This document shows positions 14,528 through 62,804 of a stretch of DNA of 64,000 bases, piece after piece. The first letter of the stretch is position 1, and every line of letters begins with the position of its first letter. A program made the translations under genes and the position numbers. Below the pieces are notes generated by a model. It searched no databases and had not been told where the DNA came from. It saw only the letters and a list, made by a program, of their open reading frames with translations. This DNA is from Octopus vulgaris. Its lineage: Eukaryota. The DNA lies in assembly GCA_951406725.2 (NCBI GenBank), contig OX597840.1, forward strand, positions 39,680,001-39,744,000, in the 5' to 3' direction.

Positions 14528-14705
14528 TATATAAGAAATTAGAAAAGGAAAATACGTATACTTACATGGTTTTAATATACTTTTTATTATATCGACTGGT
14601 TTCGCTATCGCTATTCATGATATTATGTTTAATTTACTTGAATATATATTAAAAAGTATATTAAAACCATGTAAGTGAATTTTCCTTTTTTAATTTCTTA
14701 TATAT
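14528..14705 (-). mobile_element. Small Penelope-type unit with ~55-bp inverted arms flanking a hammerhead motif
   Basis: Arms at 14528-14586 and 14650-14705 ('acttacatggttttaatatacttttta' / 'taaaaagtatattaaaaccatgtaagt'); TA-rich flanks. Confidence 0.65.
14589..14623 (-). ncRNA. Minimal type I hammerhead motif, A3-U8 core variant
   Basis: atatc-ATGAATA-gc gata gc-GAAA-ccag-TC-gatat: 5-bp stem I, GUC triplet, stem II only 2 bp. Confidence 0.6.
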
Positions 14706-16664
14706 ATATATATATATATATTCGCCAAACGAAAGGAAGTGAGAACTAGCGAGGAGACAGACAAATCTTTGGCAGAACCTACAATAAATGCTATTTCCCC
14801 TCTACACAAAAATTCTTTCCCAATCCATTGCAACTCACACGGGAGTAAACGAGTAAAGTATTGATTTGGTATATTCATACACAGACGCACGCACACACAC
14901 ATACACACACGCACATTTATAAATATATATATATATATTCATGCTCATGTATAAGTTTGGATTATGGATACATGTTTATTTGTACCCATAGGGTATTTAG
15001 CAGGATACCCCGATACACACATATATTTATACATGTAAACATTTTGTATACATATATATATGTATACATATATATATATATATGTATATATATTTATATG
15101 TATATATATATATGTATATACATATATATATATATATATTTATATATATATATTTATATATATATATATACATATATTTATATATATATATTTATATACA
15201 CATATATATATATTTACATATATTGGCGTATCTTGTATATATACATACATTGGCATGTGATAATATACGTAAATACACCAATGCCCGTTACGTATATCCA
15301 TCATATATACATCATATATACATACTTACATAAGCATCCATAATAACCGCTAGAATTACTAAAACAACAATCGTACCGTTGGTAGTCAGTAAATCTATAG
15401 AAATCTGAAACTGATTTCATTGATCTCACGTTGATAAACGAGGGAACATCCGTTTTCCGGAGGAACTGACTGTGATTCCTGAGGAAAACGTTAAGCTATA
15501 CTAAACGGTTTCCGAATAAATTCTGCATTTCATCATGTTCGCAAGGTATTTACATTTACACTGGGAAGTAACCTTCATCGACATGTCTGACTATATAGCA
15601 TTGTCACATACACACACAACACACTCACAAACACACACGTACACATATACACACTGATGCGTACATATACATACATATATATATATATATATATATATAT
15701 ATATATATATATATATGTATGTATGTATGTATGTATGTATGTATGTTTATATATATATATATATATATTTATATATGTGCATATATAGATGTGCAAGCCT
15801 GTGTGGATGTTTGCTTACCTATCTACCAATCAACTTCTATATTTCCTTCAATCTGCATCTTTTTCTGGAACTTTCTCTCTCTCTCTCGCTCGCTCTCTCT
15901 CTCTCTCTCTCTCTATATATATATATATATATATATATATACATGCACACATACATAAATGTATGAAAATGTAAATACATATATACATACATATATATGT
16001 TTATATAAACATGTACATACATATATTTATATATACATATGTGTGTATATACATGTATTTACATGTATATATGTATATCTATATATTTATCTCTCTATAG
16101 AAAGATAGATGGATAGATATATCTGTGTGTATTTCCGTGTGTTTGTGCATGTATATATAAATATGGATAGAGATCCATACATAGATACATACATATATAC
16201 ATAGATGCATACATACATAAATACACATACACACATACATTTATATATGCCTACATACATCCCGATAGCTATAGTGAGCTGTACACATATCTACACATGG
16301 ATATGTGTATACACTTGATAAACGTGATTCGAAAGAGACAAATTGGCGGTCAGTGTCGCCACATGATATTACGAAAATAACCAACCGAAAGAAGAGATAA
16401 TATTGCCAGGAGGAAGGATTCTTTCAAACACTCTATGAGAATCCGTCTTCGCTCTTACAACGACAGATGAAACATGTCGCTCGTGTTTGAGTGACTGGTT
16501 GTGTTGCGTTTTGGTCAATTTACTTTTTGTGTAGACCCACCTGACTCTGATATATTACCTGTGAGGGCATTTTGATATACAGAAAATATGAAAATCCAGC
16601 GCGCGCACACACACACACACACGTATATCATTACATATATATATATATATATATATATATATAT

Positions 16665-16843
16665 TACGAGATGTACTAGCATAGCGAGTGATTTGATCTG
16701 AGTTCGTGTGCTGAAATGAAAACAATTGCAGCGTGGAAGGTGTTTATAAGCCATTTAAGAAACACACAAAAGCCGTTCGATTCACTTCAACATTTAAGTT
16801 TAATTTGTCAAAATATTTTCGTCGCTTTAAGACCGCGACTGGT
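16665..16843 (-). mobile_element. Truncated Penelope-type unit with the 3' half of a hammerhead
   Basis: Minus strand gtcgc ggtcttaaa gcgac GAAA atat TT tgaca; 5' core missing; bounded by (TA)n on both sides. Confidence 0.45.
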
Positions 16844-16900
16844 TATATATATATATATATATATATATATATATAGAGAGAGAGAGAGAGAGAGAGAGGA

Positions 16901-17056
16901 AAATAAAATGGAGGGAAAATAACAATAAGCCATTATGTAATTAGTTAAGAAACAATCGTAAACTCACCCTTTCTCTCACATTTCTTAACTAATTAAATAA
17001 TGGCTTCCTAGCGCAAAAAACACACTCCTCATTGTTGTTTTTCATCCATTTTGTTT
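16901..17056. repeat. Imperfect inverted repeat (hairpin remnant)
   Basis: 'aagccattatgtaattagttaagaaa' (16927-16952) pairs with 'tttcttaactaattaaataatggctt' (16981-17006); the outer arms also pair loosely. Confidence 0.8.
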
Positions 17057-17310
17057 ATGTTTGTATAAATCAAACTACGGTTTACCCGCCAAATTACCTG
17101 CTGCCGTATACCTTTTACTAAGGACTCTACCTACTGAAGTAATTACCAGGAGTGCCTTTGGATATATCTATACCTTAGAGTCACTAAACACCTCTAACTT
17201 GTACCGGTGTTGGTTGGTGGGTTTGTCTTCGTATTTAGCGGTTCTGCAAAAACAAAAAAACAGATAAAATGAGTACTATACATAAAAATATGTGCAGGCG
17301 GAGGCGGGTA

Positions 17311-17800
17311 TCTTTTATCCTTTACTTGTTTCAGTCAGTAGACTGTGGCCACGCTGGGGAACCGCCTTGAAAAGGTTTTAATAGAACAAATTGACCTCAG
17401 AACATCTTTTAATGCTTGGTATTTATTCTATTGGTTACTTTCGCCGAACCGCTAATTTACGAGGACGTAGACACACCAACACCGGTTCTCAAGTGGTGGT
17501 GGTAGTGGTGAACAAACATACACACATATATATACTGTATACTTCAGGCTTCTTTCAATTTCCGTCTACAAAATCCACTGACTAGGTTTTCGTTGGCCCG
17601 AGGCCAGAATACAAAAGACTTGCCCATGTTGCCATGCAGTGGGACTGATCTCAGAACCCTGTGACTGGAAAACTAACTTCTTGCCACACAGCCACGCTTG
17701 CACCTGTTTCTTCGACAAAAATTTTGTCTCTAAACCCGTCAAGGCGATGCTCCAGAATGACCACAGTCCACTGACTGCAACAAGTAAGCGATAAAAGATA
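17311..17800 (-). mobile_element. Old family A copy (minus, 17311-17705) plus a separate plus-strand tail fragment (17738-17800)
   Basis: Diverged matches to the family A head, body and tail. Confidence 0.8.
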
Positions 17801-60946: not shown

Positions 60947-61547
60947 TATTTCTTTATTGCCCACAAGTGGCCTAAACATGGAGGGGACAAACAAGGACAG
61001 ACAAACGGATTAAGTCGATTACATCGACCGCAGTGCGTAACTGGTACTTATTTAATCGACCCCGAAAGGATGAAAGGCAAGTTCGACCTCGAAAGAACTT
61101 GAACTCAGAACGTAACGGCAGACGAAATACCTATTTCGTTACTTCCAACAAGGGGCTAAACACAGAAGGGACAAACAAGGACAGACAAACGGATTAAGTC
61201 GATTACATCGATCCCCAGTGCGTAACTGGTACTTATTTAATCAACCCCGAAAGGTTGAAAGGCAAAGTCGACCTCGGCGGAATTTGAATTCAGAACGTAA
61301 CAGCAGACGAAATATCTATTTCTTTATTACCCACAAGGGGCTAAACACAGAGAGAACAAACAAGGACAGGCAAACGGATTAATTCGATTACATCGACCCC
61401 AGTGCGTAACTGGTACTTAATTTATCGACACCGGAAGAATGAAAGGCAAAGTCGACCTCGGCGGAATTTGAACTCAGAACGTAACGGCAGACGAAATACC
61501 GCTAAGCATTTCGCCCGGCGTGCTAACGTTTCTGCCAGCTCGCCGTC
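60947..61547 (-). mobile_element. Family D SINE: one head plus three tandem 185-nt units
   Basis: Unit boundaries at 60947, 61132 and 61317; head at 61500-61547. Confidence 0.95.
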
Positions 61548-62201
61548 CTCTTTTTTTATTAATATCATAAGCACCTTGAAGATTGCACTGTTTGTTATTG
61601 TTATTATTGTTGAGGGCATTATTGTAAGTTTCCTTATATATCTATGTCTGCGTCTTCAAGAATCTAACACCCTGACTGGTTGAAAAAAATGTACATCGTA
61701 TAACCAGGGAAGCCAGGAAAGTCCAACAGTAATTAATGACATCCTAGCTGATGCAGCGCCCACACACGGCTGCTATTGAAAAATATTCAAATATGATAAT
61801 TATAGAGAAAGATCTTCTATAATGGTAAATGAATATTTAACCTGGTCTTCTGTTAAATGCCTGCAATTATGTTTCATAATTCAAGTATTGAAAAGAAACA
61901 ATATATTTACAGGCGTATTTTCTGAGCTAAATATATTAATCTTTAGTTTTCTTGTGCATTATATGGTGGAGGAGACGCATTGGAACTAGTCTTATTCGAA
62001 GGATCGCACACACACATAGACACACACACACACACTAAAACAAAGCGAAGTGCATTGTGACCAGCGATGTGTAGCAACATCTGATAGCGTGGTCGGTCAC
62101 GGTGATCACGGTGATATATATGTATCTACGTAATGTCAAACGATAAAAATGAACGATTGACACAGCATTGGTGGATATAATTTCTTTATTTGTAAACTTG
62201 G

Positions 62202-62270
62202 TCTGCCATTAGTTTCATGTTAAGAAAGAAGTGGAAAATATTCGAGTGACTTAACAATTTTTCAAGCCGA
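62202..62270 (-). ncRNA. Degenerate hammerhead motif, U3-A8 core
   Basis: cggc-TTGAAAA-at tgttaag..cttaaca t-GAAA-ctaa-TG-gcag; G at the cleavage position and mismatches suggest it is inactive. Confidence 0.45.
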
Positions 62271-62574
62271 TCTCGTAGAGAAAAGTGTTCGCCTCCATTT
62301 TGGAAGCAGGAAAATGTCGATATATATATATATATATATATATAATAGAAATATTAAAATTACTAAGTCTCTATAAAAGAGATTACGGCAGCGTTTACTG
62401 GAAATTAATTGTTATCGCCATATTAATATGGCATTCTTATAGATATAAGAATAATCGCTGCCGCTGGTCAGCTCCATGAGGCCACCGCCATCAAGATAGC
62501 TATTGATACACGATCTGTATCCATTATAACCTTCGAACAAGGGAGGTCAGCCGCTTCACACTGCCAGTCCGACA

Positions 62575-62616
62575 GCTACAGACGCGTTTCGGGGTATTGC
62601 CCCTTGTCAATGTAGC
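62575..62616 (-). ncRNA. Minimal type I hammerhead ribozyme, U3-A8 variant
   Basis: gctaca-TTGACAA-gggg caata cccc-GAAA-cgcg-TC-tgtagc. Confidence 0.82.
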
Positions 62617-62762
62617 GCAGTCAGACCCGCAGGTGTTGCCACTGACGTCTCTGTTCGAAGGTTTCTATTTACCTAGTTTCAGTGGAAAACATCCACTTGT
62701 TTTCAATAATAGAAATATTAAAATTACTAAGTTTCTATAAAAGAGATTACGGGTCTGACTGC

Positions 62763-62804
62763 GCTACATTGACAAGGGGCAATACCCCGAAACGCGTCTG
62801 TAGC
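62763..62804 (+). ncRNA. Minimal type I hammerhead ribozyme, U3-A8 variant (inverted copy)
   Basis: Identical to 62575-62616; predicted cleavage after C62798 (GUC). Confidence 0.82.

What the first reader, a model, noticed from the sequence alone, without database searches (positions are those of the whole stretch)
14589..62804. Hammerhead motifs across the window show natural covariation of the 3-8 catalytic-core pair
Seen: independent motifs with the same architecture (stem I, 7-nt core, stem II, GAAA, short mostly palindromic stem III, UH, stem I'). C3-G8 occurs at 32826 (CUGAAGA), 38228 (CUGAUGA), 42605 (CUGACGA) and 57543 (CUGAAGA). U3-A8 occurs at 62575/62763 (UUGACAA) and, degenerately, at 21148, 37903-37937 and 62202 (UUGAAAA). 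A3-U8 occurs at 14589 (AUGAAUA). In these motifs positions 3 and 8 always change together. Established: positions 3 and 8 form a Watson-Crick pair in the active hammerhead fold, and standard motif searches fix CUGANGA. Inference: several Penelope-associated families in this genome use non-canonical cores that standard searches would miss. About ten motifs in 64 kb suggests a very large genomic ribozyme-like population.
Basis: partly seen in the sequence, partly recalled or inferred. Interest (0 to 1): 0.8.

Follow-up and report, generated by a model that had tools for sequence, protein, structure and literature searches.

The report
Hammerhead core variants in Penelope fragments
This repeat-rich animal DNA holds a dozen small hammerhead-shaped RNA motifs, likely left by Penelope-like jumping genes; their swap of a key core pair to U-A is already published, while an A-U version, likely the norm of one high-copy family and untested for cutting, is the only new piece.

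Summary
The motifs are real. The list is overstated: 62575/62763 are two arms of one insertion, four listed motifs are decayed, and a decayed A3·G8 non-pair sits at 28654. Inverted arms, tails and (TA)n flanks point to truncated Penelope-like fragments; no Penelope protein was found. Natural U3-A8 is published (Perreault 2011; about 1,300 hits in Schistosoma, Cervera 2014). The new piece is A3-U8 at 14589. Contigs from four runs show a high-copy family with no other letter listed at positions 3 or 8, and a majority base that restores the palindromic stem III. That table may be cut short, so I put A3-U8 as family norm at about 85%. Cleavage is untested, and the key 2017 survey could not be read. 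The scan noted such motifs before on other genomes, including A3:U8 in a phage (unchecked). Verdict: known system, one modest new variant.

The parts
14589..14623 (-). Minimal type I hammerhead motif with A3-U8 core (N3 14618, N8 14613); stem I 5 bp, stem II 2 bp with 4-nt loop, stem III palindromic in the family majority
   Evidence: table 3 (14597 T>C in 84-98% of depth; no row for 14613 or 14618)
14528..14650 (-). Body of a high-copy repeat carrying the A3-U8 motif; many family copies end at 14528 against (TA)n and continue beyond 14650
   Evidence: tables 2, 7, 8
14477..14527 (-). Optional 3' extension (tail-like, about 50 nt) between the common family end and a (TA)n run
   Evidence: tables 2, 7
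14646..14704 (+). Inverted, 5'-truncated copy of the same repeat end, lacking the motif, ending in (TA)n
21148..21183 (-). Decayed or chance motif, UUGAAAA core, U16.1 missing, poor stem II
28651..28687 (+). Decayed motif with non-pairing A3·G8, same family as 42609 and 44492
32826..32911 (+). C3-G8 motif, long stem II insert, 8-nt palindromic stem III
34972..35109 (.). Inverted repeat upstream of the 35196 motif
35191..35232 (+).
37812..38104 (.). Head-to-head inverted repeat, arms of about 135 nt, with a decayed U3-A8 motif at the inner end of each arm (N3 37937 on -, 37978 on +)
38228..38311 (+). C3-G8 motif, long stem II insert, 8-nt palindromic stem III
42605..42641 (+). Decayed C3-G8 motif, one of three copies of a family
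44489..44525 (+). Decayed C3-G8 motif with U at position 6, same family
57543..57593 (-). Intact C3-G8 motif, 8-nt palindromic stem III
62202..62270 (-). Decayed U3-A8 motif with G17 and a 7-bp stem II
62342..62401 (-). Tail-like extension of the left arm; 62342-62388 is repeated directly at 62706-62752
62402..62629 (-). Left arm of a 228-nt inverted repeat
   Evidence: I20
62575..62616 (-). Intact U3-A8 motif, left arm; stems I 6 bp, II 4 bp, 6-nt palindromic stem III
62750..62977 (+). Right arm of the inverted repeat, ending at (TA)n
62763..62804 (+). Intact U3-A8 motif, right arm, identical to the left copy

Best explanation
The window holds about twelve short repeat insertions that carry a minimal type I hammerhead motif near their 3' end, likely 5'-truncated terminal repeats of several Penelope-like retroelement families, each family likely with its own fixed Watson-Crick pair at core positions 3 and 8 (C-G, U-A or A-U). 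In the parent element's RNA two motifs would pair through their palindromic stem III and cut after N17, slowly and probably with help from the element's protein; the 3-8 pair would hold nucleotide 8 in place, so selection on the parent keeps a pair but tolerates its identity. The genomic copies here are likely inert relics: they lack the protein gene, decay after insertion (which gives non-pairs such as A3·G8 at 28654), and the two-arm copies lie on opposite strands, so one transcript would fold into a long hairpin rather than a dimer. Shown: motif anatomy, excess over shuffles, inverted arms, (TA)n flanks, high copy number and letter variation of the 14589 family. Inferred: Penelope origin, dimer cleavage, selection on the pair, family-level fixation for the untested families.
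For: Motif excess over shuffles and 3-8 pairing. 11 of 12 elements have (TA)n within 180 nt downstream against 24% of random non-repeat positions, p about 1e-6 (the better arm was taken for two-arm elements). Head-to-head inverted arms at 14589, 37903 and 62575 and tail-like extensions at 14477-14527 and 62342-62401 match the inverted 5'-truncated copy, optional tail and microsatellite bias described for these elements (PMC8557442; PMC3846280). 14589 family (355, 199, 529 and 383 contigs laid from four runs under four organism labels): depth peaks on the core bin 14614-14621 in all four runs; no other letter at >=4% is listed at 14613 or 14618; 14597 is C in 84, 93, 96 and 98% of depth, which makes stem III a perfect palindrome; the three other variable places in the motif (14594, 14606, 14607) are N17 and loop II, positions the hammerhead model leaves free (p 0.001-0.003). 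Two specific transversions in one copy at 9% divergence have a chance of about 2e-4 to 9e-4. The same architecture, U3-A8 families and a UUGAAAA core are in Cervera 2014. A Penelope hammerhead was shown to need the element's protein and the 3-8 pair (PMC11167929).
Against: No reverse transcriptase or GIY-YIG domain among 150 frames scanned by Pfam (149 of 153 filtered frames plus one), so the Penelope link is by architecture only. Table 3 has exactly 20 rows and stops at 14607, before N8 and N3. It carries no cut-off notice, but contig pieces that cover the core show more unlisted mismatches than those that stop before it (7.6% and 9.0% against 6.7%, an excess of 1.0 and 2.5 per piece), so the table may be cut. 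Loop II and N17 variation was not subtracted and explains part of the 1.0; two fixed differences would add 2. Only 1 of about 10 families was tested against other copies. Stem II of the A3-U8 motif is 2 bp. In a full double-mutant scan of a type III hammerhead only the G3-C8 swap rescued activity (PMC9901934). Tails here are 50-60 nt, longer than the 30-40 nt in the papers.
Confidence: 0.8

Rival explanations
1. The A3-U8 core is the family norm but is a dead or nearly dead ribozyme: the parent element drifted to A3-U8 because cleavage is dispensable, and the motif persists as a structural or protein-binding signal.
For: Hammerhead catalytic mutants did not affect insertion in vitro for the Anolis element (PMC11167929); only G3-C8 rescued in a pairwise scan (PMC9901934); stem II is 2 bp and the monomer fold is weak, -3.6 kcal/mol; minimal motifs cleave poorly (PMC4209133).
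Against: A double change that lands on a Watson-Crick pair, an intact remaining core, a palindromic majority stem III and variation confined to free positions suggest selection on the catalytic fold.
Confidence: 0.35
2. A3-U8 at 14589 is private decay of this copy; the family norm is C3-G8 or U3-A8.
For: Table 3 may stop before the core; excess unlisted mismatches in core-covering pieces; this copy differs from the family majority at about 9 of 98 listed places.
Against: No cut-off notice in that table while other tables of the call carry one; depth peaks on the core in 4 of 4 runs; the needed double transversion has a chance below 1e-3.
Confidence: 0.12
3. The apparent covariation is a selection artefact: AT-rich DNA and inverted repeats yield hammerhead-like strings, and the reader picked those with a pair.
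For: True for the weak members: 21148, 62202, 42605 and 37903 score within the chance range; UUGAAAA is common in AT-rich DNA.
Against: An unbiased scan over all N3 and N8 gives 6 paired and 0 unpaired at score >=18, where shuffles give more unpaired than paired; 0 of 120 viral loci picked for the A3-U8 core string had both stems.
Confidence: 0.05
4. The carriers are not Penelope fragments but non-coding retrozymes, SINE-like elements or MITE-like palindromes.
For: No protein gene in the window; three carriers are short palindromes.
Against: No head-to-tail tandem array; arms point outward from the motif with a one-sided tail, and the 14589 family continues upstream of this copy's break (table 7). 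Animal retrozymes are themselves argued to derive from Penelope repeats (bioRxiv 10.64898/2026.07.22.740005, abstract).
Confidence: 0.12

Closest known systems
Minimal type I hammerheads in pseudo-LTRs of metazoan Penelope-like elements, especially the Schistosoma mansoni U3-A8 families (Cervera and De la Pena 2014, PMC4209133; main text parts 1-2 of 4 and supplement file 2 parts 1-2 of 3 read)
   Same: Short stem I, palindromic stem III, frequent extra base after A9, many divergent families per genome, mostly single truncated copies, opposite-strand pairs 100-700 bp apart, U3-A8 core missed by the first descriptor (about 1,300 hits), a UUGAAAA core in family 4 and U3-A8 with G17 in the family 3 example.
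   Different: None of the 56 representative motifs has A3-U8 (53 C-G, 2 U-A, 1 U·G). No octopus row; 'octopus' occurs 0 times in the supplement file searched. Stem II of the A3-U8 motif is much shorter than the usual 4-8 bp.
Natural core variants of hammerheads across all domains (Perreault et al. 2011, PMC3088659; passages read)
   Same: States that C3 and G8 covary to U3 and A8 in several natural examples, the first such report from nature.
   Different: The passages seen name only U3-A8, not A3-U8.
Small dimer-cleaving hammerheads of Penelope-like retrotransposons (Lunse, Weinberg and Breaker 2017; not held; seen only as cited in PMC6765202)
   Same: Short palindromic stem III and dimer cleavage (review passage).
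   Different: Unknown: its large sequence set (about 150,000, recalled) may already contain A3-U8 cores. This is the main gap in the novelty claim.
Poseidon element of Anolis carolinensis, PAc (PMC11167929; passages read)
   Same: Hammerhead in the terminal repeat, optional tail, 3-8 pair needed for cleavage, activity protein-assisted.
   Different: PAc is a full element with C3-G8 and tested activity; here only fragments and no activity data.

Membership tests
Minimal type I hammerhead (Penelope type) | Invariant core U4 G5 A6 A9, G12 A13 A14, A15.1-U16.1, H17 | tested here: met
   Met in six intact elements; not met at 21148, 37978, 44492, 28654, 62202.
Minimal type I hammerhead (Penelope type) | Watson-Crick pair between positions 3 and 8 | tested here: met
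   6 of 6 intact elements; A3·G8 at decayed 28654.
Minimal type I hammerhead (Penelope type) | Stem I closing the motif and a stem II of 3 bp or more | tested here: inconclusive
   Met for 62769/62610, 35196, 57588, 32830, 38231; stem II is only 2 bp at 14618.
Minimal type I hammerhead (Penelope type) | Palindromic stem III allowing dimer formation | tested here: met
   Palindromes at 62769, 35196, 57588, 32830, 38231; at 14618 in the family majority, not in the window copy.
Minimal type I hammerhead (Penelope type) | Site-specific self-cleavage after N17 | not testable with these tools
   Needs a bench assay; only contigs were available.
Penelope-like element | RT plus GIY-YIG ORF linked to the repeat | tested here: inconclusive
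   No such domain in 150 window frames; expected for 5'-truncated copies, and full-length copies could not be fetched (no genome).
Penelope-like element | Inverted 5'-truncated copy beside the repeat | tested here: met
   14646-14704, 37812-38104, 62402-62977.
Penelope-like element | Optional 30-40 nt tail at one end | tested here: inconclusive
   One-sided extensions exist but measure about 50 and 60 nt.
Penelope-like element | Dispersed multi-copy family with insertion bias to microsatellites | tested here: met
   199-529 contigs per run for the 14589 family; 11 of 12 elements near downstream (TA)n.
Rfam hammerhead families | Covariance-model match | tested here: not met
   None among 12 matches over 62100-63050; none among the best 150 of 406 matches shown for the whole window.
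Non-LTR retrozyme | Head-to-tail tandem units each with a hammerhead | tested here: not met
   Self-searches find only inverted second copies or dispersed relatives.

The most novel reading that the evidence does not exclude
A retroelement family present in about a thousand or more copies in several related animal genomes uses an active A3-U8 hammerhead, the first multi-copy natural family with this core, so that one genome runs three of the four Watson-Crick pairs at the catalytic 3-8 position. The switch to A3 also spells AUG at positions 3-5, so the core may double as the element's start codon, and U3-A8 families may be freed to cut after G17.
Probability: 0.25. Interest if true: 0.55.

Novelty: new variant of a known kind. 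Interest (0 to 1): 0.33.

Why it matters
The main claim restates published work. The A3-U8 family matters modestly: it would extend the natural sequence space of the best-studied ribozyme core to a pair that laboratory scans found poorly tolerated, give a natural sequence in which to test whether dimer context or the element's protein relaxes the 3-8 constraint, and show that hammerhead surveys should leave positions 3 and 8 free. If the family proves inactive, it supports the view that Penelope hammerheads can persist without efficient cleavage.

Tried and rejected
No whole genome is held, so the genome-wide scan was not possible. Rfam found no hammerhead family. The generic repeat finder was swamped by microsatellites. 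A metagenome scan with the 14589 core pattern, positions 3 and 8 left open, gave 1 match, L121, in 51% GC unrelated DNA with no flanking likeness; rejected as chance. MAFFT could not align the divergent motifs, so no covariance model or formal pair count was built. Three of six palindrome slices (57588, 32830, 38231) were cut off register; their palindromes are read. No RNA holder listed for 36900-38700; no evidence on expression. Three short motif strings were absent from the Craig 2021 supplement text. Paper searches for A3-U8, A3U8 and C3A plus G8U found nothing relevant, but C3U plus G8A also found nothing although U3-A8 is published, so these searches are weak. Lunse 2017 and Przybilski and Hammann 2007 are not held; file 1 of the Cervera supplement was not searchable, and figures are not held. 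No look-alike of the 14589 repeat in earlier scan windows.
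Full report
Setting. The window is 34% GC and packed with microsatellites, SINE-like repeats and transposon scraps. It looks like an octopus genome, but that is my recall of its SINE, not a test. No whole genome is held. Public runs under five organism labels hold part of the stretch 36900-38700, three of them at half of its words or more.

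Checking the observation. All named places carry the quoted cores. I scanned both strands with a type I descriptor that leaves N3 and N8 free and allows the extra base after A9. Of 20 hits, those scoring 18 or more are 62769 and 62610 (U3-A8), 57588 (C3-G8), 35196 (U3-A8, new), 32830 and 38231 (C3-G8); 14618 (A3-U8) scores 17. Shuffled windows give 0.03 paired and 0.20 unpaired hits at 18, and 0.13 and 0.45 at 16, against 6 and 0, and 8 and 1, observed (60 shuffles). Counting one hit per element, permutation of N8 gives p=0.002 for 7 of 8, and 0.017 for the six intact elements. The score was written after I had seen the motifs, so the figures lean favourable.

Limits of the observation. 62575 and 62763 are arms of one 228-nt inverted repeat. 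In a relaxed scan allowing one core departure, 42609, 62265 and 37937 score 14, where about 4.7 chance hits are expected, and 21180 scores 11 under another parse, where about 17.5 are expected at 10 or more (449 shuffles). 42609 has two relatives in the window, 44492 and 28654; the latter has A3·G8, so decayed copies do break the pair. Folded alone, none of 13 motifs is notably stable (best z -1.67), as expected for motifs without a closed stem III.

What carries the motifs. Three sit in head-to-head inverted repeats with the motif at the inner end pointing outward (14525-14707, 37812-38104, 62402-62977), and a fourth follows one (34972-35109). Eleven of 12 elements have (TA)n within 180 nt downstream, against 24% of random positions. 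The 62402 element has a one-sided 60-nt extension, 47 nt of which recur at the inversion joint. An inverted 5'-truncated copy, an optional tail and microsatellite bias are described features of Penelope-like insertions (PMC8557442, passages; PMC3846280, passages). No RT or GIY-YIG domain was found in 150 frames, so the link is architectural.

Testing decay on the A3-U8 motif. I laid contigs of four runs, under four organism labels, on 14478-14697 at 80% likeness; 355, 199, 529 and 383 contigs were laid. Summed depth peaks on the bin 14614-14621 in every run. Divided by a rough single-copy depth this is about 1,200 to 4,900, though the tool warns that it is no copy number. Many copies end at 14528 against (TA)n, some carry an extension to about 14477, and many continue past 14650 where this copy breaks into its inverted arm. 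At 14597 the family has C in 84-98% of depth, which makes stem III a perfect palindrome; the window copy carries a private change. The other variable places inside the motif are N17 and two loop II bases, all free in the hammerhead model (p 0.001-0.003). No other letter is listed at N8 (14613) or N3 (14618).

Caveat on that test. The table has exactly 20 rows and ends at 14607. It has no cut-off notice, whereas two other tables of the call do. Against completeness, 21 long pieces covering the core show more unexplained mismatches than 10 that stop before it (7.6% and 9.0% against 6.7%; the whole-stretch record 17 was left out). For pieces ending by 14630 the excess is 1.0 per piece, part of it the loop II and N17 variation, where two fixed differences would add 2; the sample is too small to decide. 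Independently, a single copy reaching A3-U8 by two specific transversions has a chance below 1e-3. I put A3-U8 as family norm at about 85%. The other families were not tested this way.

Mechanism. By the published model, two such motifs pair through the palindrome and cut after N17, with low activity in vitro (PMC4209133; review PMC6765202). In the Anolis element cleavage needs the element's protein and the 3-8 pair, yet is not needed for insertion in vitro (PMC11167929). I infer that each family inherits one 3-8 pair from its parent element and that the copies here are relics. Opposite-strand arms cannot dimerise in one transcript and would form a long hairpin. Whether A3-U8 cuts is open: a full double-mutant scan of a type III hammerhead found rescue only for G3-C8 (PMC9901934, passages), yet that scan also gave low activity for U3-A8, which is common in nature, so context matters.

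Comparison with what is known. Perreault 2011 reports natural covariation of C3-G8 to U3-A8 (PMC3088659, passages). Cervera and De la Pena 2014 report it in Schistosoma Penelope elements, missed by their first descriptor, about 1,300 hits, along with opposite-strand pairs and 4,000-9,000 motifs in coelacanth and Xenopus. Their 56 representatives include a UUGAAAA core and no A3-U8. Searches for A3-U8 found nothing but are weak, and Lunse 2017 and Przybilski and Hammann 2007 could not be read. A 2026 Octopus vulgaris repeat annotation lists Penelope-like families and does not mention hammerheads in its main text (PMC13282606, passages; supplement not read). Earlier notes of this scan describe the same system in other genomes and an A3:U8 core in a phage (unchecked).

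Density. Six intact and six decayed elements in 64 kb is high, but the window was picked for this and the genome-wide number is untested.

Verdict. The system and the U3-A8 covariation are known. A likely family-wide A3-U8 core is a new variant of a known kind, with activity untested. Interest 0.33.

Noticed in passing
   Followed up: yes
window 28651-28687, 42605-42641, 44489-44525 (+): Three decayed copies of one motif-bearing family, about 70% alike; two have U at core position 6, so the family norm may be an A6U variant.
   Followed up: partly
window 14618-14560 (-): A3-U4-G5 spells AUG; the frame closes after 18 codons in this copy, with a splice-donor-like hexamer overlapping the stop. 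In the Anolis element the ORF starts inside the hammerhead.
   Followed up: partly
window 62202-62270 (-): U3-A8 together with G17, the same combination as the Schistosoma family 3 example, the only G17 among 56 rows. G17 is thought to inhibit by pairing with C3 (PMC3884650), which U3-A8 might relieve.
   Followed up: partly
window 4075-4193 (-): Full-length 5S rRNA match, 105 bits, apparently solitary.
   Followed up: no
window 42906-43163 (+): PIF1 helicase fragment, probably a Helitron relic.
   Followed up: no
window 1080-1256 (+): Mariner (Mos1-type HTH) transposase fragment.
   Followed up: no
window 46496-46783 (+): Frame resembling the restriction-like endonuclease end of a Dong/R4-type LINE (recalled likeness; no Pfam hit).
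   Followed up: no
window, many places such as 4639-5038 and 25864-26263: Abundant roughly 400-nt SINE-like repeat with an internal microsatellite; it resembles octopus SINEs as I recall them, which is my only basis for calling the genome octopod-like.
   Followed up: no
window 60960-61540: Three near-tandem copies of a roughly 185-nt repeat.
   Followed up: no
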